DNA of 7,400 bases, taken from IMG/VR virus record IMGVR_UViG_2513237361_000004; one strand, 5' to 3'. Source of the stretch: a virus (Duplodnaviria > Heunggongvirae > Uroviricota > Caudoviricetes). The position numbers and the translations under genes were made by a program. This document shows positions 1 through 7,400 of this stretch, in pieces (the stretch's first letter is position 1; every line of letters begins with the position of its first letter). Below the pieces are notes generated by a model, which ran no database searches, was not told the DNA's origin, and was given only the letters and a program-made list of their open reading frames with translations.

Positions 1-7
1 TCACTCA

Positions 8-34
8 GGGGCGCGGAACCGCGCCCCCTGTTCT
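8..34 (+). terminator. GC-rich stem-loop, possible terminator or transcript-stabilising hairpin downstream of the preceding off-window gene
   Basis: Seen in sequence: GGGGCGCGG (8-16) is the exact reverse complement of CCGCGCCCC (19-27), with a very short AA loop, so realistically an 8-bp stem with a 4-nt loop. It is followed by CTGTTCT, only a weak T tract. A stop codon at 41-43 closes the upstream frame. The position immediately before the first gene start fits a hairpin after an upstream gene. Confidence 0.4.
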
Positions 35-49
35 GACGGGTGAAGAATC

Positions 50-250
50 ATGATCCTGAAACAAGATCTGAAATGGTCACCGGACGGTATGCGTGTTGAG
101 GTCATTCGGGCCGGTGAGTATGACGACGGGGCGCTTCCTGCCCGGGTGCAGGAGATTGCACTTCAGGCCGGGTTAGCAGAGCGCGGAACCAGTGCAAAAA
201 GCAGTAAAGCGACAAAAGAGAAAAAAGCCACGACCAGTAAAGAGGGCTGA
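50..250 (+). CDS. hypothetical small phage protein (66 aa) with lysine/serine/threonine-rich C-terminal tail; function unknown
   Basis: ATG at 50 preceded by GGTGA (38-42). Stop TGA at 248-250 lies 2 nt before the next start, co-oriented with the operon. C-terminus SAKSSKATKEKKATTSKEG is low complexity. No family recognised. Confidence 0.5.
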   Translation: MILKQDLKWSPDGMRVEVIRAGEYDDGALPARVQEIALQAGLAERGTSAKSSKATKEKKATTSKEG

Positions 251-252
251 GT

Positions 253-576
253 ATGCTTCTGACAATGGAAGAGATTAAAGCCCAACTCCGGCTGGATGAG
301 GATTTCGATGCTGATGACCGCCATCTGCAACTACTGGCCTGTGCGGCGCAAAAGCGGACGGAAACGTATCTGAACCGGAAGCTCTATGCACCGGATGAAA
401 CCATTCCGGAGAGCGATCCAGACGGGCTGCACCTGCCGGATGATATTCGTCTGGGGATGCTGATGCTTATCAGCCATTTTTACGAAAACCGCTCGTCGGT
501 TACGGAAGTGGAGAAACTCGACATGCCGCAGAGTTTTGGCTGGCTTGTCGGCCCGTACAGGTACTTTCCGCAATGA
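253..576 (+). CDS. phage head-tail connector protein (gp6-like, DNA-packaging/connector family)
   Basis: RBS GAGGG at 242-246, 6 nt before ATG 253. The 107-aa product has an N-terminus (LTMEEIKAQLRLDEDFDADDRHLQLL..AA....E.Y..R.L) that matches my recollection of the gp6-like head-tail connector family. Its stop overlaps the next start (ATGA at 573-576). Confidence 0.75.
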   Translation: MLLTMEEIKAQLRLDEDFDADDRHLQLLACAAQKRTETYLNRKLYAPDETIPESDPDGLHLPDDIRLGMLMLISHFYENRSSVTEVEKLDMPQSFGWLVGPYRYFPQ

Positions 577-983
577 AAATTCGTCAGGCGCAGACCAGCG
601 CAACCTACATTCTGCCGGACCCCGGTGAACTGAATAAACGCGTCCTGATCCGCCAGCGGGTGGATATGCCCGCGGATAACTTTGGCGTGGAGCCTCAATA
701 CCCGGTTACGTTCCGGACATGGGCGAAGGTTATCCAGACCAGTGCCACCACCTGGCAGGAAACCGCGCAGACCGGGGACGCCATCACCCATTACATCACC
801 ATTCGTTACCGCCGGGGGATCACCGCTGATTATGAGGTGGTCTGCGGTGACAGTGTGTACCGGGTGAAACGTCAGCGCGATCTGAACGGGGCGCGGCGCT
901 TTCTGCTGCTGGAGTGTACGGAGCTGGGCGAATGTAGGCAGAGTCACGGAGGCAGCAATGGCGACTCCCTTTTTTCACGTTGA
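573..983 (+). CDS. phage head closure / head-tail adaptor protein (head-tail joining family)
   Basis: ATGA overlap with the upstream gene suggests translational coupling. The 136-aa product (LNKRVLIRQRV......TWAKV......ITIRYRRGIT..YEV....VYRV) resembles head-tail joining / head closure proteins in size and pattern. It sits directly after the connector gene, as is typical. Confidence 0.75.
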   Translation: MKIRQAQTSATYILPDPGELNKRVLIRQRVDMPADNFGVEPQYPVTFRTWAKVIQTSATTWQETAQTGDAITHYITIRYRRGITADYEVVCGDSVYRVKRQRDLNGARRFLLLECTELGECRQSHGGSNGDSLFSR

Positions 984-1464
984 TGTTCAGCAGCCCGCCG
1001 AGATGCGCTTTAACCGCGCCCGTGTCCGGCGGGCGTTTGTCACGATTGGGCAGCGTCATATGCGTGATGCCCGTCGGCTGGTGATGCGCCGTGCGCGGTC
1101 GGCACCGGGTGAAAACCCCGGTTATCAGACCGGACGCCTGGCTCGTTCGATTGGTTATATGGTGCCGAGAGCCAGTAAAAAGCGAGCCGGTTTTATGACA
1201 CGCATTGCCCCTAACCAGCGCAACGGGAAGGGGAACCGGATGATCTCTGGTGACTTCTATCCGGCGTTTCTGTTTTTTGGTGTCCGGGGAGGAGCAAAAC
1301 GTCGTCGTAGTCATCATCGTGGTGCATCCGGTGGCAGCGGCTGGCGACTGGCTCCACGTAATAATTTCATGGTGGAAACTCTTGAAAAGAACCGCAGCTG
1401 GACACGCTATTTTCTGGCGCGGGAATTGCGTAAATCACTGAAGCCGGAGCGACGACACAGATGA
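958..1464 (+). CDS. HK97 gp10-like tail-component / virion morphogenesis protein
   Basis: Strong RBS GGAGG at 948-952, 5 nt before ATG 958. The 168-aa basic protein contains a TGRLARSI motif and a downstream YPAFLFFG segment that recall the HK97 gp10 family. It overlaps the previous gene by 26 nt in another frame. Confidence 0.65.
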   Translation: MATPFFHVDVQQPAEMRFNRARVRRAFVTIGQRHMRDARRLVMRRARSAPGENPGYQTGRLARSIGYMVPRASKKRAGFMTRIAPNQRNGKGNRMISGDFYPAFLFFGVRGGAKRRRSHHRGASGGSGWRLAPRNNFMVETLEKNRSWTRYFLARELRKSLKPERRHR

Positions 1465-2021
1465 AACTGACGCCTGTTATTGCTGCGCTGCGTGCCCGCT
1501 GCCCGTATTTTGAAAACCGGGTGGCAGGCGCGGCACAGTTCAAAAATCTGCCGGAGGTCGGAAAGCTGAGACTCCCGGCGGCGTATGTGGTACCGGGTGA
1601 TGACTCTCCGGGAGAAAACAAAAGCCAGACCGACTACTGGCAGGAGCTGAAAGAGGGCTTCTCCGTGGTTGTCATACTGAGTAACGGGCGTGATGAGCGC
1701 GGTCAGTTTGCCTCGTATGATGTGGTGGACGATGTCCGGCAGATGCTCTTTAAGGCCCTGCTGGGCTGGAACCCGGAAGCGTGCGGTAACCCGATTACCT
1801 ATGACGGCGGCACGCTGCTGGATCTGAATCGTCATGAGCTGATTTATCAGTTCGATTTTTCGGTCATCAGCGAGCTGACTGAAGACGATACCCGCCAGCA
1901 GGATGATCTGAACAGTCTGGATGAACTTCAAACGCTGGCGATTGATGTTGATTATCTCGAGCCCGGTAACGGGCCTGACGGCGATATCGAACATCACACC
2001 GAAATAACCCTTCCTTCCTGA
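1461..2021 (+). CDS. Mu gp37-like tail completion / putative tail terminator protein (function inferred from position)
   Basis: ATGA overlap with the upstream gene (1461-1464). 186-aa acidic protein, co-directional, placed immediately before the pre-sheath small ORF and the sheath gene, which is the usual position of the tail terminator/completion protein in Mu-like tail modules. Family assignment is tentative. Confidence 0.6.
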   Translation: MKLTPVIAALRARCPYFENRVAGAAQFKNLPEVGKLRLPAAYVVPGDDSPGENKSQTDYWQELKEGFSVVVILSNGRDERGQFASYDVVDDVRQMLFKALLGWNPEACGNPITYDGGTLLDLNRHELIYQFDFSVISELTEDDTRQQDDLNSLDELQTLAIDVDYLEPGNGPDGDIEHHTEITLPS

Positions 2022-2029
2022 GGATCCTC

Positions 2030-2200
2030 ATGTTTGTCAAACCTGTTAAAGGGCGGTCAGTGCCTGACCCTGCCCGCGGCGACCTTTTGCCCGCCGAAGG
2101 GCGAAATGTTGACGAGAACAACTACTGGCTGCGCCGTGAAGCCGCGGGTGATATCCGGCGCGTGAATAAAAAGGTGAACACCGATGACGATAAGCTTTAA
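2030..2200 (+). CDS. small conserved pre-sheath protein (56 aa; DUF2635-like small phage protein encoded upstream of Mu-type tail sheath genes)
   Basis: Not in the supplied ORF track (below its length cutoff). RBS GAGGA at 2020-2024, 5 nt before ATG 2030. Hand translation: MFVKPVKGRSVPDPARGDLLPAEGRNVDENNYWLRREAAGDIRRVNKKVNTDDDKL, stop TAA at 2198-2200, overlapping the sheath start by 17 nt. The pattern MFVKP...LLPAEG....YWLRR matches my recollection of a small protein family found beside Mu-like sheath genes. Confidence 0.6.
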   Translation: MFVKPVKGRSVPDPARGDLLPAEGRNVDENNYWLRREAAGDIRRVNKKVNTDDDKL

Positions 2201-3679
2201 CACCATTCCGTCGAATACGCTGGTTCCGCTGTTTTATGCGGAAATGGATAACTCGGCGGCGAATACTGCACAGGACAGCGGAGCATCGCTGCTGATTGGT
2301 CATGCCAATAACGGTGCAGAGATTGTTGCCAACAGTCTGGTACTGATGTCGTCGGCAGACTATGCACGCCAGATTTGTGGTGCGGGAAGTCAGCTGGCGC
2401 GTATGGTCGAGGCTTATCGCCAGACTGACCCGTTTGGCGAGCTGTATGTGATTGCCGTTCCGGAAGCCACAGGCGCGGCGGCAACGGTTACGCTGACGGT
2501 GACCGGGGCGGCAACCGAAACCGGCACGGTGAATGTTTATGTGGGACGTACCCGCGTGCAGGCACCGGTGACCAACGGCGATAACGTCACGACGATTGCC
2601 GGCAGTATCAAAGATGCCATTAATGCCGTTCCGACTCTGCCGTTTACAGCTTCATCTTCGGCTGGTGTTGTCACGCTGACCGCGCGTCATAAGGGGTTTG
2701 CGGGAATGAAATTCCTGTCAGCCTCAATTACTACGGCTTTGGTGGGGGCGAAGTGCTGCCAGCGGGTGTACAGATTGCCGTGGCGACGGGGACCGCCGGA
2801 ACGGGCGCTCCGGTTCTCACCGGTGCGGTGGCTGCAATGGCGGATGAGCCGTTTGATTATATCGGTCTGCCGTTCAACGACACGGCCTCCGTTAACACGC
2901 TGGTGACCGAGATGAACGATACCAGCGGTCGCTGGAGCTATGCGCGTCAGCTGTATGGTCATGTGTATACGGCAAAGATCGGCACGCTGTCAGAACTGGT
3001 GACCGCAGGTGACCAGTTTAACCAGCAGCACATCACCCTGGCGGGGTACGAAAAAGAGACCCAGACGCCTGCCGACGAGCTGGCGGCAAGCCGTACCGCC
3101 CGCGCAGCGGTGTTTATCCGCAACGATCCGGCACGTCCCACGCAGACCGGTGAGCTGGTGGGTATGCTGCCTGCGCCGAAGGGGAAACGGTTCACGATGA
3201 CCGAGCAGCAGACCCTGCTGTCTCATGGCGTGGCAACGGCGTATGTCGAAAGCGGGGTGCTGCGCATTCAGCGTGATGTCACCACGTACAGGAAAAACGC
3301 TTACGGGGTTGCGGATAACAGTTACCTCGACAGTGAGACGCTGCATACCAGCGCGTATGTACTGCGCAAACTGAAATCCGTCATTACCAGTAAGTACGGG
3401 CGTCACAAGCTTGCCAGTGACGGTACCCGCTTTGGTCCCGGTCAGGCGATTGTCACCCCGGCGGTGATCAAAGGGGAACTGCTGGCAACCTACCGTCAGC
3501 TTGAGCGTGCGGGGATCGTGGAAAACTACGAACTGTTTAAGCAGTACCTGGTTGTGGAGCGTGATGCCAGCGATCCGAACCGCCTGAACACGCTGTTCCC
3601 GCCTGACTATGTTAACCAGCTGCGTGTCTTTGCCGTGGTTAATCAGTTCCGTCTTCAGTATTCAGAGGAGTCTGCATAA
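2184..3679 (+). pseudogene. Mu-type phage tail sheath gene, interrupted by a single-nucleotide frame disruption near 2693-2707 (fragments 2184..2906 and 2753..3679)
   Basis: RBS AAGGTG at 2171-2176, then ATG 2184. Two overlapping ORFs in different frames together span 1496 nt, which is about 498 aa once one base is restored, a typical sheath size. The frame-2 reading opens right after a TAA at 2690-2692 and reads GVCGNEIPVSLNYYGFGGGEVLPAGVQIAVATG, which looks sheath-like. The frame-0 reading after about 2706 turns into R/W/C-rich text (KCCQRVYRLPWRRGPP...) typical of an out-of-frame translation. Homopolymer runs GGGG (2693-2696), TTT (2697-2699) and GGG (2702-2704) sit at the junction. Confidence 0.8.
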
Positions 3680-4035
3680 TGGCCCGTATCGGGGGAACCT
3701 GTTATTTCAAAATTGACGGTCAGCAGCTATCGCTGACCGGCGGCATTGAGGTGCCCATGAACAAAACGGTTAACGATGACATCATCGGCCTGGACGGTTC
3801 AGTGGACCGCAAGGAAACTCACCGTGCGCCTTATGTCAAAGGGACCTTCAAGGTGCCGAAGAATTTTCCGGTAAGCAAAATCACCTCGTCTGATGAGATG
3901 ACCATCACTGCCGAGCTGGCGAACGGTCAGGTCTATGTACTGTCGTCTGCCTGGCTGCACGGCGAAGCGAACCATAATGCCGAAGAAGGCACGGTTGATC
4001 TTGAGTTCCACGGTGAAGAAGGGGATTACCAGTAA
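3679..4035 (+). CDS. phage tail tube protein (Mu gpM-like)
   Basis: RBS GAGGAG at 3665-3670, 8 nt before ATG 3679. TAATG overlap with the sheath stop. The 118-aa product lies immediately downstream of the sheath, with the size and position of Mu-type tail tube proteins. Confidence 0.8.
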   Translation: MARIGGTCYFKIDGQQLSLTGGIEVPMNKTVNDDIIGLDGSVDRKETHRAPYVKGTFKVPKNFPVSKITSSDEMTITAELANGQVYVLSSAWLHGEANHNAEEGTVDLEFHGEEGDYQ

Positions 4036-4304
4036 TGAAAGAGCTTGAGTTAAAGAAACCGATTACTGCTCATGGCGAGACACTCTCCGTACTGGAGTTT
4101 GATGAACCCACCGGGAAGGATGTCCGCGAGCTGGGGTATCCCTACCAGATGAATCAGGATGAGTCAGTCAGACTTCTGGCGCATGTGGTGTCGAAATACA
4201 TTGTGCGGCTGGCGAAAGTGCCGCAAAGCTCTGTCGACCAGATGTCTCCGGCAGACCTGAATGCAGCGGCGTGGCTTGTGGCTGGTTTTTTCCTCCAGGC
4301 CTGA
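4035..4304 (+). CDS. phage tail assembly chaperone (lambda G-like / Mu gp41-like), short form
   Basis: TAATG overlap with the tube gene stop. The 89-aa acidic protein lies between the tube and tape measure genes, the conserved chaperone position. A slippery heptamer sits just before its stop codon. Confidence 0.75.
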   Translation: MKELELKKPITAHGETLSVLEFDEPTGKDVRELGYPYQMNQDESVRLLAHVVSKYIVRLAKVPQSSVDQMSPADLNAAAWLVAGFFLQA

Positions 4305-4459
4305 CGGCTGAATACCTCACTGATCGCTTCTTTGACTGCGCCAGCTACTGGCGCATTAATCCTTTCGAATTGCTGAATATGCCGATCAGTGAAATTCCCT
4401 TGCTGGTCAGTCAGGCAAACAGGATAGAGCAGGAGAAACGCACACATGGCGGAATTTGA
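4035..4459 (+). CDS. tail assembly chaperone, -1 frameshift-extended form (GT-like); join(4035..4292,4292..4459), about 141 aa
   Basis: Slippery heptamer T_TTT_TTC at 4286-4292 in the zero frame. A -1 slip enters the frame of the 4271..4459 ORF, reading ...GFF then PPGLTAEYLTDRFF..., and ends 14 nt inside the tape measure gene. This is the conserved architecture of dsDNA phage tail chaperone frameshifts. Confidence 0.6.
4286..4292 (+). promoter_or_regulatory. programmed -1 ribosomal frameshift slippery site (T_TTT_TTC)
   Basis: Heptamer fits the X_XXY_YYZ rule with zero-frame codons TTT TTC, located 10 nt before the chaperone stop. The -1 frame stays open for 55 further codons. No convincing downstream pseudoknot or hairpin seen by eye. 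Confidence 0.6.
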
Positions 4460-6281
4460 GCTTAAGGCGTTGATCACCGGTGTCGACAGGCTTTCTCCCG
4501 CGCTGTCGAAAATGCAAAAGAAAATCCGGGGATTTAAACGCCAGGCGGAAGAAGCGTCACAGGGTGGGCTGGCGCTTGGTGGCGGACTGGCAGCGGGTCT
4601 GACGCTTTCCCTGAAATCTTATGCCGATCAGGAAAACGCCGCCACCGGGCTGAAAGTCGCCATGATGGATGCGAATGGCGAGGTTGGAAAGAGCTTTCAG
4701 GACATCAATAAACTGGCTATTGGCCTGGGTAACCAGCTACCCGGTACAACGGCTGATTTCCAGAACATGATGCAGATGCTGGTGCGTCAGGGGATCCCGG
4801 CAGAAAACATTCTTGGCGGTGTGGGTAAAGCGACAGCTTATCTTGCGGTACAACTGAAAAAAACACCGGAAGCGGCTGCTGAGTTTGCTGCAAAGATGCA
4901 GGATGCTACCGGAACGGCGTCAGAAGACATGATGGGGCTGTTCGACACTATCCAGAAGGCGTTTTATCTGGGCGTTGACGATACCAACATGTTGTCCTTC
5001 TTCACTAAAACCAGTTCTGTTCTGAAGATGGTGAACAAGGACGGTCTTCAGGCTGCACAGAGCCTTGCCCCCATCAGCGTCATGATGGATCAGATGGGGA
5101 TGAACGGGGAGTCGGCAGGTAACGCCCTGCGAAAAGTTATCCAGTCCGGATTAAGCGTTAAGAAAATCAGGGACGTCAATAAAATCATGGCCCGCCAGAA
5201 ACTCGGGGTACAGCTCGATTTTACTGACGGCAAAGGAAGTTTTGGCGGTCTTGATAACATGTTCAGGCAACTGGCAAAGCTGCGAAAACTGACCGACGTT
5301 AAGCGAACAGGTGTACTTAAGGCAATATTTGGTGATGATGCCGAAACCCTTCAGGTGGTCAATGCACTAATCGATAAAGGAAAGGATGGCTACGATCAGA
5401 TCCAGCAGAAGATGAATAAACAGGCCAGCCTGAATAAACGTGTTCAGGCCCAGCTTGGTACGCTGTCCAACCTGTGGGAGGCAATGACGGGGACCGCAAC
5501 TAACGGCCTTGCGGCTATTGGCGGCGCATTTTCTGGTGACGCCAAAAATATCACGCAATGGCTGGGGGAGTTAGGGGAAAAATTCACGAAGTTTGCGGAT
5601 GAAAATCCCCGGGTTATTCGCGGCGTCGTCGGGCTTGCTGCCGGTCTTGCGATTCTGAAACTGGGATTGATGGGCGTTGGCGGTGCCATCAGTATTGTCA
5701 GCAGGATCATGTCGATGACGCCGATTGGAATGATTGCGACGGCGATAGCCCTGGCTGCGGGATTAATTATCACTAACTGGGATGTTGTCGGACCTTATTT
5801 CAAGAAGCTCTGGGAAACCATTGGTCCTTATTTTGAGGCTGGCTGGGAACTTCTGAAGAAGGTTTTTGCCTGGTCGCCGCTGGGGATGGTGATCAATAAC
5901 TGGGGACCGGTTGTTAAGTGGTTTCAGGATATGTGGGATAAGCTGAAGCCAATTATTGAGTGGTTTACCGACAGTTCCGGTGACACGGTCGATGCCATTA
6001 ACTCTGCGCAGTGGGGCGCGGGTGCTTATGATGCTTATGGGACGGGAATACCGGCACGGGGATACACACCTTATCAGGCGGTAGATCCGGCTCAGTCAAA
6101 CAACGCCTCCGGTGCCACAGGCCCGAATCCCTTCATGATTAACAAAGCTTCTGCGCCAAAAGTTGATGGTGAGATCAAGGTCTCTTTTGTGAATTCGCCT
6201 CCGGGTATGCGGGTTATGGAAACGCGATCCAGCGGTTTTGATGTCAGCCATGATGTTGGCTATACGCGCTTTGGCTGGTAA
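4446..6281 (+). CDS. phage tail tape measure protein
   Basis: 611-aa ORF directly after the chaperone/frameshift pair. RBS AGGAG at 4431-4435 with a rather long spacer of 10 nt. Mostly hydrophilic Ala/Gly/Gln/Lys-rich sequence, then a hydrophobic Gly/Ala-rich segment (GVVGLAAGLAILKLGLMGVGGAISIV...IATAIALAAGLIIT) and a Trp-rich C-terminal region with an 11-residue repeat, all typical of tape measure proteins. Confidence 0.85.
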   Translation: MAEFELKALITGVDRLSPALSKMQKKIRGFKRQAEEASQGGLALGGGLAAGLTLSLKSYADQENAATGLKVAMMDANGEVGKSFQDINKLAIGLGNQLPGTTADFQNMMQMLVRQGIPAENILGGVGKATAYLAVQLKKTPEAAAEFAAKMQDATGTASEDMMGLFDTIQKAFYLGVDDTNMLSFFTKTSSVLKMVNKDGLQAAQSLAPISVMMDQMGMNGESAGNALRKVIQSGLSVKKIRDVNKIMARQKLGVQLDFTDGKGSFGGLDNMFRQLAKLRKLTDVKRTGVLKAIFGDDAETLQVVNALIDKGKDGYDQIQQKMNKQASLNKRVQAQLGTLSNLWEAMTGTATNGLAAIGGAFSGDAKNITQWLGELGEKFTKFADENPRVIRGVVGLAAGLAILKLGLMGVGGAISIVSRIMSMTPIGMIATAIALAAGLIITNWDVVGPYFKKLWETIGPYFEAGWELLKKVFAWSPLGMVINNWGPVVKWFQDMWDKLKPIIEWFTDSSGDTVDAINSAQWGAGAYDAYGTGIPARGYTPYQAVDPAQSNNASGATGPNPFMINKASAPKVDGEIKVSFVNSPPGMRVMETRSSGFDVSHDVGYTRFGW

Positions 6282-6302
6282 TGAAAAATTAATCTGTTAA
6301 TG

Positions 6303-6329
6303 AGTCCCACTCCGGTGGGATTTTTTATG
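6303..6329 (+). terminator. intrinsic-terminator-like hairpin within the tail operon, between the tape measure and DNA circularization genes
   Basis: Stem TCCCAC (6305-6310) pairs with GTGGGA (6315-6320) around loop TCCG, extendable by A-T and G-T pairs at 6303/6304 with 6322/6321. It is followed directly by TTTTTT (6321-6326). It sits 22 nt after the tape measure stop and upstream of the RBS at 6333-6336. Confidence 0.5.
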
Positions 6330-6341
6330 TACGGAGTTTAT

Positions 6342-7400
6342 ATGACGTGGAAAGACAGACTTCAGGACGCGTCATTTCGCGGTGTGCCGTTTAAGGTTGA
6401 AGAAGAAAATGCGGGAACCGGTCGTCGTGTGGAAACGCACGAATACCCGAACCGCGACAAACCCTATACCGAAGATTTGGGAAAAGTCACTTTCCGCCCG
6501 TCCATCACGGCTTATGTGGTGGGAGATGACTGCTTTGACCAGCGCGATCGCCTGATTGACGCGCTGAATAAACCCGGTCCCGGCACGCTTGTCCATCCGA
6601 CATACGGTGAGCTGAAAGTCTGTGTTGACGGGGAGGTTCGGGTCAGCACATCGAAGAGTGAAGGGCGTATTGTCCGCTTTGACCTGAAGTTTGTCGAAGC
6701 GGGAGAACTCTCTTACCCCACATCAGGTGCGGCGACGGCGCAGACGCTGATGTCATCCTGTTCTGCACTGGATGACTGCATCAGTGACAGCTTCAGTGGT
6801 TTCAGTATCGATGGCGTGGCAGATTTTGTGCAGAACGACGTCGTCGGTAATGCCAGCACAATGCTTGGGTATGTTTCTGATGCGATGAAAGTGGTGGATT
6901 CTGCCGTATCGGATGCCGCCAGGCTGTTGCAGGGGGATATCTCGGTACTTCTGCCGCCACCATCGTCAGGCAAAAATTTCGTTGAGCAGGTGCAGAAAAT
7001 GTGGCGTACCGGGAAACGCCTTTATGGTAACGCCAGCGACCTGGTCACCATGATCAAAACGCTTTCCGGTGTCAGCCTCGGCAGCGATCTGCAACCGCGC
7101 GGCGTCTGGAAAACGGACAGTAAAACCACCGCCACGGCGACGCAGCAGCGTAACGTGGTTGCCAGCACCCTTCGTACGACCGCAATCAGCGAAGCGGCGT
7201 ATGCCGTCACCCGATTGCCTGCGCCAACAACTTCCGCGGTGATGCAGAATGCCGCAGATGTCCCGACCGGCAGCAGATACGGTCAGCCAGCCGGGCACAA
7301 TGTCCGGGCAAAATCAGGTTTAAACTGTTCGCTACTGGATCAGGACTGGTATGAAATGCGCCGTCAGCTTGAGTACAAGCATTTCGGCATGAAGGTCTGA
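6342..7400 (+). CDS. Mu gpN-like DNA circularization protein (tail/baseplate-associated)
   Basis: N-terminus WKDRLQDASFRGVPFKVEEENAGTGRRVETHEYPNRDKPYTEDLG...GPGTLVHPTYGEL matches my recollection of the DNA circulation protein N-terminal domain. RBS GGAG at 6333-6336, 5 nt before ATG 6342. In-frame ATGs at 6300 and 6327 are less likely starts, since the 6300 start would place the terminator hairpin inside the coding region. In-frame TGA at 7398-7400 coincides with the window end. Confidence 0.8.
   Translation: MTWKDRLQDASFRGVPFKVEEENAGTGRRVETHEYPNRDKPYTEDLGKVTFRPSITAYVVGDDCFDQRDRLIDALNKPGPGTLVHPTYGELKVCVDGEVRVSTSKSEGRIVRFDLKFVEAGELSYPTSGAATAQTLMSSCSALDDCISDSFSGFSIDGVADFVQNDVVGNASTMLGYVSDAMKVVDSAVSDAARLLQGDISVLLPPPSSGKNFVEQVQKMWRTGKRLYGNASDLVTMIKTLSGVSLGSDLQPRGVWKTDSKTTATATQQRNVVASTLRTTAISEAAYAVTRLPAPTTSAVMQNAADVPTGSRYGQPAGHNVRAKSGLNCSLLDQDWYEMRRQLEYKHFGMKV

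What the first reader, a model, noticed from the sequence alone, without database searches (positions are those of the whole stretch)
4271..4459. Conserved G/GT-type programmed -1 frameshift in the tail assembly chaperone
The chaperone ORF (4035..4304) carries the heptamer T_TTT_TTC (4286-4292) four codons before its stop. The -1 frame then stays open for 55 codons to 4459, overlapping the tape measure start. This is the signature arrangement of dsDNA phage tail chaperone genes, where a minority of ribosomes shift to make an extended product that engages the tape measure protein. Standard gene callers usually miss the extended product or call it as an unrelated small ORF (4271..4459 in the track).
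Basis: partly seen in the sequence, partly recalled or inferred. Interest (0 to 1): 0.5.

Follow-up and report, generated by a model that had tools for sequence, protein, structure and literature searches.

The report
Tail chaperone programmed -1 frameshift site
A small phage tail-assembly gene in an SfV-like prophage carries a conserved slippery run (T TTT TTC) that should let a minority of ribosomes slip back one base and make a longer protein; this is an ordinary feature of tailed phages, closest to phage P2 E/E+E', but no public record of this phage group that I examined annotates it.

Summary
The chaperone ORF 4035-4304 (Pfam Phage_TAC_7) contains T_TTT_TTC at 4286-4292 in X_XXY_YYZ phase. 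The -1 frame then runs 55 codons to the TGA at 4457-4459 and overlaps the tape-measure ATG at 4446. One detail is wrong: the small ORF at 4271 starts with GTG, not ATG.

- About 95 distinct homologous loci keep T_TTT_TTC, T_TTT_TTT or G_GGT_TTT at the same codon.
- The -1 extension is under purifying selection (dN/dS 0.11, against about 1.3 in the other frames).
- Most homologues have no start codon from which it could be translated independently.

Profile comparison links the whole fused product to P2 gpE+E' (95%, E 3e-8), with the slip sites aligned. No record that I examined annotates the fusion for SfV-like phages.

One addition: an 8-bp RNA hairpin (4337-4355) with frozen synonymous sites lies inside the extension. 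It may be part of a larger fold that begins 6 nt after the heptamer. Its role is untested.

This prophage copy looks defective: the sheath gene is frameshifted and the gpN-like gene is truncated.

Verdict: a real feature and a new member of a known kind. Interest is low to moderate.

The parts
4035..4304 (+). Tail assembly chaperone gene, the 'G'/gpE-like 0-frame product of 89 aa
   Evidence: ORF and translation. Pfam PF10109 Phage_TAC_7, E 1.9e-16, 60.3 bits. PHROG 166 'tail protein'. Annotated 'phage tail assembly protein' in RefSeq E. coli.
4286..4292 (+). Slippery heptamer T_TTT_TTC; the 0-frame codons are GGT TTT TTC
   Evidence: Read directly from the sequence. It sits at the same codon in 34 distinct genome loci and 62 distinct viral-contig loci, as T_TTT_TTC, T_TTT_TTT or G_GGT_TTT. 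The amino acid before FF varies (G, R, N, S, V, P) but the third base of its codon stays T. U_UU.U_UU.C is among the frameshift-prone motifs measured in E. coli (PMC4066793).
4292..4459 (+). -1 frame extension ('T'/E'-like domain): 55 codons plus the TGA stop, read only after the shift. Predicted fusion product is 141 aa, from 4035-4292 joined to 4292-4459
   Evidence: Translation. dN/dS 0.108 and no stops in 14 homologues. No conserved start codon of its own. PHROG 32181 'unknown function'. Profile match to P2 E': whole fusion 95.1%, E 3e-8; T part alone P 1.7e-4.
4337..4355 (+). Conserved RNA hairpin UGCGCCAG-CUA-CUGGCGCA (8 bp, 3-nt loop) inside the extension, 44 nt after the heptamer
   Evidence: Perfect inverted repeat. 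It appears in the minimum-energy fold and in the RNAalifold consensus. Synonymous sites in the stem are frozen: TGC 37/37, GCC 37/37, TAC 35/37, CGC 36/37. The loop base and the flanking codons vary freely. 92.7% of cells are paired in 43 sequences. L320 shows a GC-to-AU compensatory change and L289 a G-U pair. Its function is not established.
4299..4416 (+). Tentative larger fold enclosing the hairpin: outer helix 4299-4305/4410-4416 (5' arm starts 6 nt after the heptamer) and middle helix 4317-4326/4383-4392
   Evidence: Perfect inverted repeats of 7 and 10 nt. The 120-nt fold is -37.6 kcal/mol with z -3.5, and 0 of 200 shuffles fold as well. z is negative in all 13 clade members tested. Conservation is only partial: 77.7% and 63.5% of cells paired, with little independent covariation.
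4431..4435 (+). AGGAG Shine-Dalgarno-like sequence for the tape-measure gene, inside the extension's coding sequence, 10 nt before the ATG at 4446
   Evidence: Read directly from the sequence. Inference only.
4446..6281 (+). Tape measure protein gene, the presumed binding partner of the chaperone part. Its start overlaps the end of the extension by 14 nt (8 nt in SfV and in P2)
   Evidence: PF10145, E 1.3e-26. Annotations. P2 E+E'/T overlap.
3679..4035 (+). Tail tube gene immediately upstream, the presumed partner of the extension domain by analogy with lambda gpV
   Evidence: PF10618 Tail_tube, E 3.3e-33. The role is inferred from the lambda model described in PMC5009743.

Best explanation
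This is the tail-assembly-chaperone recoding site of an SfV-like temperate myovirus with a Mu-type tail module. It works like phage P2 E/E+E'.

Most ribosomes translate 4035-4304 and release the 89-aa chaperone. A minority slip while tRNA-Phe occupies both UUU (P site) and UUC (A site) of U_UUU_UUC. Both tRNAs re-pair one base back on UUU_UUU, and translation continues in the -1 frame for 55 more codons. The result is a 141-aa fusion, ...LVAGFF-PPGLTAEY....

By analogy with lambda G/GT and P2 E/E+E', the shared N-terminal part coats the tape-measure protein. The rarer C-terminal extension recruits the tube protein. A fixed low ratio of the two products, neither of which ends up in the virion, allows tail assembly.

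What is shown here: the anatomy; conservation of the slip site at nucleotide level; protein-coding selection on the -1 frame; the lack of an independent start; and remote homology of the whole fusion to P2 E+E'. What is inferred: that slippage occurs, how efficient it is, and which proteins bind which.

A conserved hairpin, possibly part of a larger fold that starts 6 nt after the heptamer, may raise the otherwise low efficiency of U_UUU_UUC. This is a hypothesis.
For: - Position and family: the gene lies between tube and tape-measure genes and matches PF10109.
- Heptamer: it is in X_XXY_YYZ phase at 4286-4292.
- Nucleotide-level conservation: the same site occurs in SfV, SfI, SfII, EPP-1 and AH07 as T6C, and in SfIV, phiP27 and ST64B as T7. 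It occurs in 34 distinct genome loci and 62 distinct viral-contig loci. The preceding amino acid varies, yet the third base of its codon stays T. Two lineages use G_GGT_TTT instead.
- Near-identical copies: 157 of 160 keep T6C.
- Coding signal: -1 frame dN/dS is 0.108 with 0 stops, against 1.31 and 1.24 with 33 and 57 stops in the other frames. The chaperone body gives 0.076.
- No usable start codon in the -1 frame in most homologues.
- Homology to P2: GT profile against P2 E+E' profile gives 95.1%, E 3e-8, with the slip positions aligned. P2 uses GGT TTT TTG at the same place, gives products of 91 and 142 aa, and has an 8-nt overlap with its tape-measure gene (PMC3091744).
- Measured slipperiness: U_UU.U_UU.C and U_UU.U_UU.U are frameshift-prone in E. 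coli, at 0.12% and 0.33% bare and 7.6% and 10.2% with a pseudoknot stimulator (PMC4066793 supplement).
Against: - I found no experiment for SfV-like phages: no reporter assay, junction peptide or ribosome profiling.
- The bare heptamer gave only about 0.12% frameshifting in an E. coli reporter. A useful yield would need help from its context, and no stimulator is proven. The 50-60 nt right after the heptamer are no more stable than shuffles (z +0.2 to +0.7).
- The extension does not reach the Pfam PF06528 (P2 GpE) threshold.
- In this copy the sheath gene is frameshifted and the gpN-like gene is truncated. The site may therefore be a silent relic here, even if it works in intact relatives.
Confidence: 0.88

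Rival explanations
1. The extension is made through transcriptional slippage. RNA polymerase adds an extra U in the T6 run, and standard translation of those transcripts gives the same fusion protein.
For: The site is a homopolymer run of T6 or T7 in every homologue. One inserted U would give exactly the same protein. The conserved T in the codon before FF lengthens the run, which would also favour polymerase slippage.
Against: - From general knowledge, not tested here: efficient slippage by E. coli RNA polymerase needs runs of about 8-9 or more.
- In the SfV-type clade the seventh base is C in every distinct locus that has the T-run (47 viral-contig loci, and the 16). TTC to TTT is synonymous and would lengthen the run, yet it is not used.
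- Two lineages use G_GGT_TTT, with only four T but a valid X_XXY_YYZ heptamer.
- The run is always in X_XXY_YYZ phase.
Confidence: 0.05
2. ORF 4271-4459 is an independent small gene, translated from its own GTG at 4271, as one phage record annotates it.
For: A GTG lies in the -1 frame 15 nt before the heptamer. ON470584 annotates the equivalent ORF as a hypothetical protein. PHROG 32181 collects such ORFs.
Against: - There is no Shine-Dalgarno-like sequence before 4271.
- A start codon at that position is present in only 8 of the 34 distinct loci.
- Most homologues have no start upstream of the conserved domain, and eight have no ATG, GTG or TTG anywhere in the ORF.
- Conservation of the protein begins exactly at the slip site. 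Upstream of it, the -1 frame reads through the chaperone's coding sequence.
Confidence: 0.02
3. The open -1 frame and the T-run are coincidental or vestigial, and the 141 nt between the chaperone stop and the tape-measure start are non-coding spacer.
For: RefSeq and most phage records leave the stretch unannotated. 9.5% of positions in the window have at least 55 open -1 codons by chance.
Against: - dN/dS is 0.108 with a codon-position pattern of variation and no stops in 14 sequences.
- Conserved motifs run across clades that are about 40% identical.
- There is profile similarity to P2 E'.
Confidence: 0.01
4. About the conserved hairpin and fold only: it is not a frameshift stimulator. Only frameshifted ribosomes translate the stretch from about 4305 to 4445, so it is rarely covered. 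The fold may shield it from Rho-dependent termination or RNase attack, or tune tape-measure translation.
For: - The hairpin starts 44 nt after the heptamer, too far for the usual 5-9 nt spacing.
- The fold spans nearly the whole stretch that lies between the chaperone stop and the tape-measure ribosome-binding site.
- Strongly negative z-scores are concentrated in the clade whose chaperone stops only 12 nt after the slip. They are near 0 where it continues for 66 nt.
Against: - The outer helix 4299-4305/4410-4416 begins 6 nt after the heptamer, the classical distance.
- U_UUU_UUC is about 2.7-fold less slippery than U_UUU_UUU when bare and responds strongly to stimulators. This fits a compensating structure in the T6C clade.
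- Neither role has been tested.
Confidence: 0.35

Closest known systems
Phage P2 E / E+E' programmed -1 frameshift (Christie et al. 2002, as described in PMC3091744 and annotated in NC_001895)
   Same: - Gene order is the same: tube, then chaperone, then tape measure.
- Both N-terminal parts belong to PF10109.
- The slip occurs at GGT TTT TTN, directly after a conserved Gly-Phe.
- Product sizes are 91/142 aa in P2 and 89/141 aa here.
- The extension ends inside the start of the tape-measure gene: 8 nt overlap in P2 and SfV, 14 nt here.
- Whole-fusion profile match is 95.1%, E 3e-8.
   Different: - The heptamer ends in C (or T in the sister clade) rather than G.
- The extension does not meet Pfam PF06528 and is only remotely similar (T part alone P 1.7e-4).
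- The surrounding tail module is Mu-like (gpL sheath, gpM tube, DUF2635, gpN), not P2-like.
- P2 is reported to lack downstream structure (PMC3091744; z 0.09). This clade has a conserved hairpin.
- P2's fusion is annotated in public records and this one is not.
Phage lambda G / GT frameshift (Levin et al. 1993; Xu, Hendrix and Duda 2004, 2013, 2014, as summarised in PMC5009743)
   Same: Same genomic position and logic: a small chaperone gene with a -1 shift near its 3' end, which produces a rarer extended protein. The model is that the chaperone part binds the tape measure and the extension binds the tube protein.
   Different: I tested no sequence similarity to lambda G or T. Lambda slips on G_GGA_AAG. 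It is a siphovirus. Its extension is much longer than 55 aa (my own knowledge).
Phage Mu gp41
   Same: The rest of this tail module is Mu-like, and the name of PF10109 lists '41'.
   Different: Mu gp41 is 144 aa, and no T-run heptamer is seen in the last 50 or so codons of its gene. Xu et al. are cited as proposing a -2 shift for Mu (PMC2628397). The recoding site here is therefore of the P2 type, not the Mu type.

Membership tests
Conserved tail-assembly-chaperone frameshift of dsDNA tailed phages (Xu, Hendrix and Duda 2004 class) | Small gene located between the major tail/tube gene and the tape-measure gene | tested here: met
   Tube 3679-4035 (PF10618), chaperone 4035-4304, tape measure 4446-6281 (PF10145).
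Conserved tail-assembly-chaperone frameshift of dsDNA tailed phages (Xu, Hendrix and Duda 2004 class) | Second ORF in an alternative frame that overlaps the 3' end of the first, has no start of its own, and is conserved as protein | tested here: met
   55 codons in the -1 frame. dN/dS 0.108. No conserved start codon.
Conserved tail-assembly-chaperone frameshift of dsDNA tailed phages (Xu, Hendrix and Duda 2004 class) | Slippery sequence in the overlap, conserved among relatives | tested here: met
   T_TTT_TTC, T_TTT_TTT or G_GGT_TTT at the same codon in about 95 distinct loci.
Conserved tail-assembly-chaperone frameshift of dsDNA tailed phages (Xu, Hendrix and Duda 2004 class) | Both products made at a fixed ratio, both needed for tail assembly, neither present in the virion | not testable with these tools
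   Needs reporter, proteomic and genetic experiments. I found no published data for SfV-like phages.
Pfam PF10109 Phage_TAC_7 (chaperones E, 41, 14) | HMM score above the gathering threshold | tested here: met
   60.3 bits against a cut-off of 25, residues 4-86. P2 gpE relatives carry the same domain.
P2 gpE+E' family (Pfam PF06528 Phage_P2_GpE, the E' extension) | Extension matches the PF06528 HMM | tested here: not met
   The 55-aa extension and the SfIV-type extension give no hit even at E up to 10. P2 E' scores 78.7 bits.
P2 gpE+E' family (Pfam PF06528 Phage_P2_GpE, the E' extension) | Remote homology of the extension by profile-profile comparison | tested here: inconclusive
   Whole fusion 95.1%, E 3e-8, covering both parts. 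Extension alone 49% probability, P 1.7e-4, 33 aligned columns on the A..W..P.EL..(S/T)L motif. A shallow 6-sequence profile gave only E 0.08.
P2 gpE+E' family (Pfam PF06528 Phage_P2_GpE, the E' extension) | Slip on T_TTT_TTN directly after the conserved Gly-Phe at the end of the chaperone domain; extension ends within the start of the tape-measure gene | tested here: met
   P2 has GGT TTT TTG and the window has GGT TTT TTC, aligned. Overlaps are 8 nt (P2, SfV) and 14 nt (window).
Canonical bacterial -1 frameshift signal (heptamer plus stimulator) | X_XXY_YYZ heptamer allowing re-pairing of both tRNAs | tested here: met
   U_UUU_UUC, with tRNA-Phe in both sites. The motif is in the efficient H_HH.U_UU.Y class in E. 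coli (PMC4066793).
Canonical bacterial -1 frameshift signal (heptamer plus stimulator) | Stimulator: Shine-Dalgarno-like sequence 6-17 nt upstream, or a stable structure 5-9 nt downstream | tested here: inconclusive
   By eye there is no Shine-Dalgarno-like sequence upstream. The local 50-60 nt are not unusually stable (z +0.2 to +0.7). A long-range helix starting 6 nt downstream exists but is only partly conserved. The well-conserved hairpin lies 44 nt downstream.
Mu gp41-type recoding (-2 shift proposed) | Mu-like chaperone gene and slip region | tested here: not met
   Mu gp41 is 144 aa with no T-run heptamer in the last 50 or so codons of its gene. The window's site is of the P2 type.

The most novel reading that the evidence does not exclude
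In the SfV-type clade the weaker heptamer U_UUU_UUC is paired with a clade-specific RNA element. This is an 8-bp hairpin with frozen synonymous sites, nested in a fold of about 118 nt. The fold's base lies 6 nt after the slip site, and it spans the whole extension-coding region. The element either stimulates frameshifting from an unusual architecture or protects the rarely translated stretch before the tape-measure gene from polarity and decay. Either role would be a regulatory layer not described for tail-chaperone frameshifts, which are usually said to lack stimulatory structure.
Probability: 0.3. Interest if true: 0.45.

Novelty: new member of a known kind. Interest (0 to 1): 0.27.

Why it matters
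The finding is mainly an annotation correction. SfV-like prophages matching this stretch occur in about 1100 of 5426 complete E. coli genomes, and also in Shigella, Citrobacter, Pantoea and others. None of the records I examined annotates the 141-aa fusion protein. RefSeq leaves a gap of about 140 nt, and one phage record calls a spurious independent ORF.

Recognising the site gives a correct proteome for SfV, SfI, SfII, SfIV, phiP27 and ST64B-type tails, and for related phage-tail-like particles. It also extends the P2 E/E+E' arrangement to Mu-type tail modules.

The family offers a natural comparison between U_UUU_UUC and U_UUU_UUU sites. The conserved hairpin gives a concrete, testable candidate for how context tunes an intrinsically weak heptamer.

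Tried and rejected
- Pfam scan of the extension alone found nothing, not even PF06528.
- A shallow 6-sequence profile against P2 E+E' was not significant (E 0.08). Deeper profiles were needed.
- Rfam found no known RNA family in 4150-4550.
- The terminator and promoter scan did not flag the hairpin.
- A PDB sequence search with the fusion profile found no solved relative.
- The protein database search for an annotated fusion returned only six singleton 'fusions'. They contain several frame errors and come from error-prone assemblies, so I rejected them as evidence of natural fused genes.
- The first viral-contig and metagenome scans returned almost only near-identical copies. Scans seeded with divergent members were needed to get diversity.
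- Literature searches for an explicit statement or experiment on SfV, SfIV or ST64B chaperone frameshifting found nothing. Christie 2002 is not held. I could not read Xu 2004, so I cannot say whether SfV is in its list.
- The large E. coli heptamer screen of Sharma et al. 2014 does not list this cluster among its prophage clusters.
- I considered a local 4-bp hairpin, 4298-4301/4306-4309, as a stimulator. I rejected it as no better than shuffles.
- I did not run a structure prediction of the fusion. Only window sequences and database hits may be submitted, and the hits lack the extension, so the model of the extension would rest on almost no alignment.
Full report
**Where the window comes from**

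The 7.4-kb window is the head-to-tail and tail module of an SfV-like temperate myovirus.
- Positions 3600-4700 are 98.5% identical to Shigella phage SfV. They are up to 99.9% identical to prophages of E. coli O157:H7 and other E. coli, and a match occurs in 1102 of 5426 complete genomes.
- The gene order, from Pfam and public annotation, is: head closure, tail terminator, DUF2635, sheath, tube (3679-4035), tail assembly chaperone (4035-4304), tape measure (4446-6281), DNA-circularisation protein. This is a Mu-type tail module.

**The observation**

- The chaperone ORF ends ...GCT GGT TTT TTC CTC CAG GCC TGA.
- T_TTT_TTC therefore occupies 4286-4292 in X_XXY_YYZ phase. Three sense codons and the stop follow.
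- From 4292 the -1 frame reads PPGLTAEYLTDRFFDCASYWRINPFELL... for 55 codons, to the TGA at 4457-4459. This is 14 nt past the tape-measure ATG.

Within the window alone, the case is only suggestive.
- There are 5 in-frame heptamers of this form in 2301 codons.
- 9.5% of codon positions have at least 55 open -1 codons.
- This is the only heptamer next to a stop with a long -1 ORF behind it.

**Comparative evidence**

Four results bear on the interpretation.

1. The slip site is conserved at the nucleotide level.
   - SfV, SfI, SfII, Edwardsiella phage EPP-1 and Pantoea phage AH07 have T_TTT_TTC at the same codon.
   - SfIV, phiP27 and ST64B have chaperones only about 40% identical, which run 22 codons further in the 0 frame. 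They have T_TTT_TTT at the aligned position.
   - The same holds across 34 distinct bacterial-genome loci and 62 distinct viral-contig loci. The counts among the viral contigs are 47 T6C, 14 T7 and 1 G_GGT_TTT, and a further G_GGT_TTT occurs in an alphaproteobacterial genome.
   - The amino acid before Phe-Phe varies (Gly, Arg, Asn, Ser, Val, Pro), but the third base of its codon stays T. The first Phe is always TTT, never TTC.
   - Exceptions are rare: G_TTT_TTT in L245 and L066, and G_TTT_TTC in 2 of 160 near-identical copies.
   - The other loci without a site are decayed endosymbiont copies, loci cut at a contig end, and one locus that matches only the extension part.

2. The -1 frame is a protein-coding sequence.
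   - I used 14 SfV-type sequences and the part of the extension that no other gene overlaps.
   - dN/dS is 0.108 with no stop codon. The other two frames give 1.31 and 1.24, with 33 and 57 stops. The chaperone body gives 0.076.

3. The extension cannot generally be translated on its own.
   - The GTG at 4271 has no Shine-Dalgarno-like sequence.
   - A start at that position occurs in only 8 of the 34 distinct loci.
   - Most homologues have no ATG, GTG or TTG upstream of the conserved domain.
   - Eight have none anywhere in the ORF.

4. The whole predicted fusion is a remote homologue of P2 gpE+E'.
   - A 101-sequence profile of fusions against an 11-sequence P2-type profile gives 95.1% probability and E 3e-8 over 119 columns. 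The two slip positions align.
   - The extension alone gives P 1.7e-4 on the motif A..W..P.EL..(S/T)L.
   - The extension does not reach Pfam PF06528.

**How it compares with P2**

P2 slips on GGT TTT TTG, makes products of 91 and 142 aa, and ends E' 8 nt inside its tape-measure gene. The window has GGT TTT TTC and products of 89 and 141 aa. The overlap is 8 nt in SfV and 14 nt here, because a TGA-to-GGA change that is silent in the tape-measure frame moves the stop two codons downstream.

**Mechanism**

The best explanation is tandem -1 slippage of two tRNA-Phe from UUU_UUC to UUU_UUU. It yields ...LVAGFF-PPGLTAEY....
- In E. coli reporters, U_UU.U_UU.C and U_UU.U_UU.U belong to the efficient H_HH.U_UU.Y class (PMC4066793).
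- Their bare efficiencies are low, 0.12% and 0.33%. They rise to 7.6% and 10.2% with a strong pseudoknot.
- The roles of the two products are taken from the lambda and P2 literature (PMC5009743). There the chaperone part binds the tape measure and the extension recruits the tube protein. These roles are inferred here.

Rival explanations fare poorly.
- Transcriptional slippage would give the same protein. It is disfavoured because the runs are short, the seventh base stays C although TTT would be synonymous, the phase is constant, and two lineages use a GGGTTTT heptamer.
- Independent initiation and a chance ORF are contradicted.

**Something extra inside the finding's coordinates**

The extension-coding RNA of the SfV-type clade is structured.

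The hairpin:
- The window has an 8-bp hairpin at 4337-4344/4348-4355.
- In 37 distinct sequences that encode C-A-S/R-Y-W-R-I/M, the stem codons are frozen at synonymous sites: TGC 37/37, GCC 37/37, TAC 35/37, CGC 36/37.
- The loop base varies: among the 33 sequences with Ser, AGC occurs 9 times and AGT 24 times. Flanking conserved codons also vary freely, for example Phe 15/22, Asp 20/16 and Ile 16/13/7.
- One lineage keeps pairing through a GC-to-AU double change, and another has a G-U pair.
- In 43 sequences, 92.7% of cells in this helix are paired.

The larger fold:
- Two further perfect inverted repeats enclose the hairpin: 4317-4326/4383-4392 and 4299-4305/4410-4416. The outer one starts 6 nt after the heptamer.
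- The 120-nt fold has z -3.5, and z is negative in all 13 clade members tested (-1.2 to -5.5).
- T7-type relatives are near 0, and P2 gives z 0.09 over 80 nt and -1.9 over 120 nt. In a wider sample the median z is -1.7 for T6C and -0.65 for T7.
- The outer helices are only partly conserved, with 77.7% and 63.5% of cells paired and few independent covariations.

I therefore regard the hairpin as real and the larger fold as tentative. Two roles are plausible: stimulating a weak heptamer, or protecting a rarely translated stretch ahead of the tape-measure gene. I cannot choose between them. No Rfam family matches.

**Known or new**

- The class is textbook (Xu, Hendrix and Duda 2004), and the closest characterised case is P2 E/E+E'.
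- None of the records examined for SfV-like phages annotates a joined product. This covers RefSeq E. coli, SfV, SfI, SfII, SfIV, phiP27, ST64B, EPP-1 and AH07.
- A search of a database of 5.8 billion protein sequences returned only the 89-aa chaperone, plus six error-ridden singletons.
- P2's fusion, in contrast, is annotated as 'GpE family phage tail protein'.
- The T ORF sits in PHROG 32181, 'unknown function'.
- A genome-wide E. coli heptamer screen did not list this cluster.
- I could not read Xu 2004 to see whether SfV is in its table.

My verdict is a new member of a known kind. It is of modest interest, with some added value from the conserved hairpin.

**Caveat for this copy**

This prophage looks defective.
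- The sheath gene has a 1-nt deletion near 2696 relative to intact homologues.
- Homology to SfV-like prophages stops at 7257, inside the gpN-like gene. It is followed at 7270-7399 by a fragment about 90% identical to IS200/IS605 tnpB genes.

The recoding signals themselves are intact here, but they may no longer serve tail production in this genome.

Noticed in passing
window 2184-3679 (break near 2696): The tail sheath gene is split into two overlapping ORFs, 2184-2906 and 2753-3679. The span is 1496 nt, whereas E. coli 7784, SfV and others have one intact 1497-nt gene. An alignment places a 1-nt deletion at about 2696 (AAGGGG-TTTGC). It is either a pseudogene or a sequencing error.
   Followed up: partly
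window 7257-7400: Similarity to SfV-like prophages stops at 7257, inside the DNA-circularisation (gpN-like) gene that starts at 6342. Positions 7270-7399 are about 90% identical to the interior of IS200/IS605-family insQ/tnpB genes, which are present in most E. coli genomes. The gpN-like gene is therefore truncated and fused in frame to a TnpB fragment.
   Followed up: partly
window 1-459: The left end is unrelated to the O157:H7-type prophage (L001) that matches 460-7257. It does match other E. coli prophages that cover 1-7257 at 98.9%. This is a mosaic junction between the head and head-tail connector genes.
   Followed up: no
window 4454-4459; L002 2352-2354: The extension is 55 aa here and in O157:H7 prophages but 53 aa in SfV and most relatives. 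A TGA-to-GGA change moves the stop two codons downstream. The change is synonymous in the overlapping tape-measure frame (GCT to GCG, Ala).
   Followed up: yes
L097, L103, L066 (about 846-856 in each locus; equivalent to window 4284-4294): Among 160 near-identical copies, two have GGG TTT TTC. This is a synonymous Gly change that removes the first T of the heptamer. One has GGG TTT TTT CTC, which shifts the T6 run by one base. All three keep the same chaperone protein, so they are natural variants that may alter frameshift efficiency.
   Followed up: partly
L038 1758-1764; L249; L245: Distant relatives replace the T-run with G_GGT_TTT (an alphaproteobacterial genome and one viral contig) or have G_TTT_TTT. 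The conserved -1 extension is kept in each. This supports selection for slipperiness rather than for a particular sequence.
   Followed up: partly
L001 4706-4846 (equivalent to window 4305-4445): RefSeq locus tags jump from BFL18_RS01715 (chaperone) to RS01725 (tape measure). The 141-nt stretch between them is left unannotated. ON470584 annotates the same stretch as an independent 'hypothetical protein'.
   Followed up: yes
proteins P0001-P0006: The only 'fused' chaperone proteins in the large protein database are singletons from metagenome assemblies. They contain several internal frame errors, for example ...AGFSSSLTAEY... and ...QNSLSLKKTNECCGVACGWFFPPGL.... These are assembly artefacts, not natural fusions.
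   Followed up: yes
window 4423-4438 with 4492-4507: A 16-nt inverted repeat, 81% complementary, brackets the tape-measure start codon and includes its AGGAG ribosome-binding sequence. It could occlude the ribosome-binding site. Conservation was not examined.
   Followed up: no
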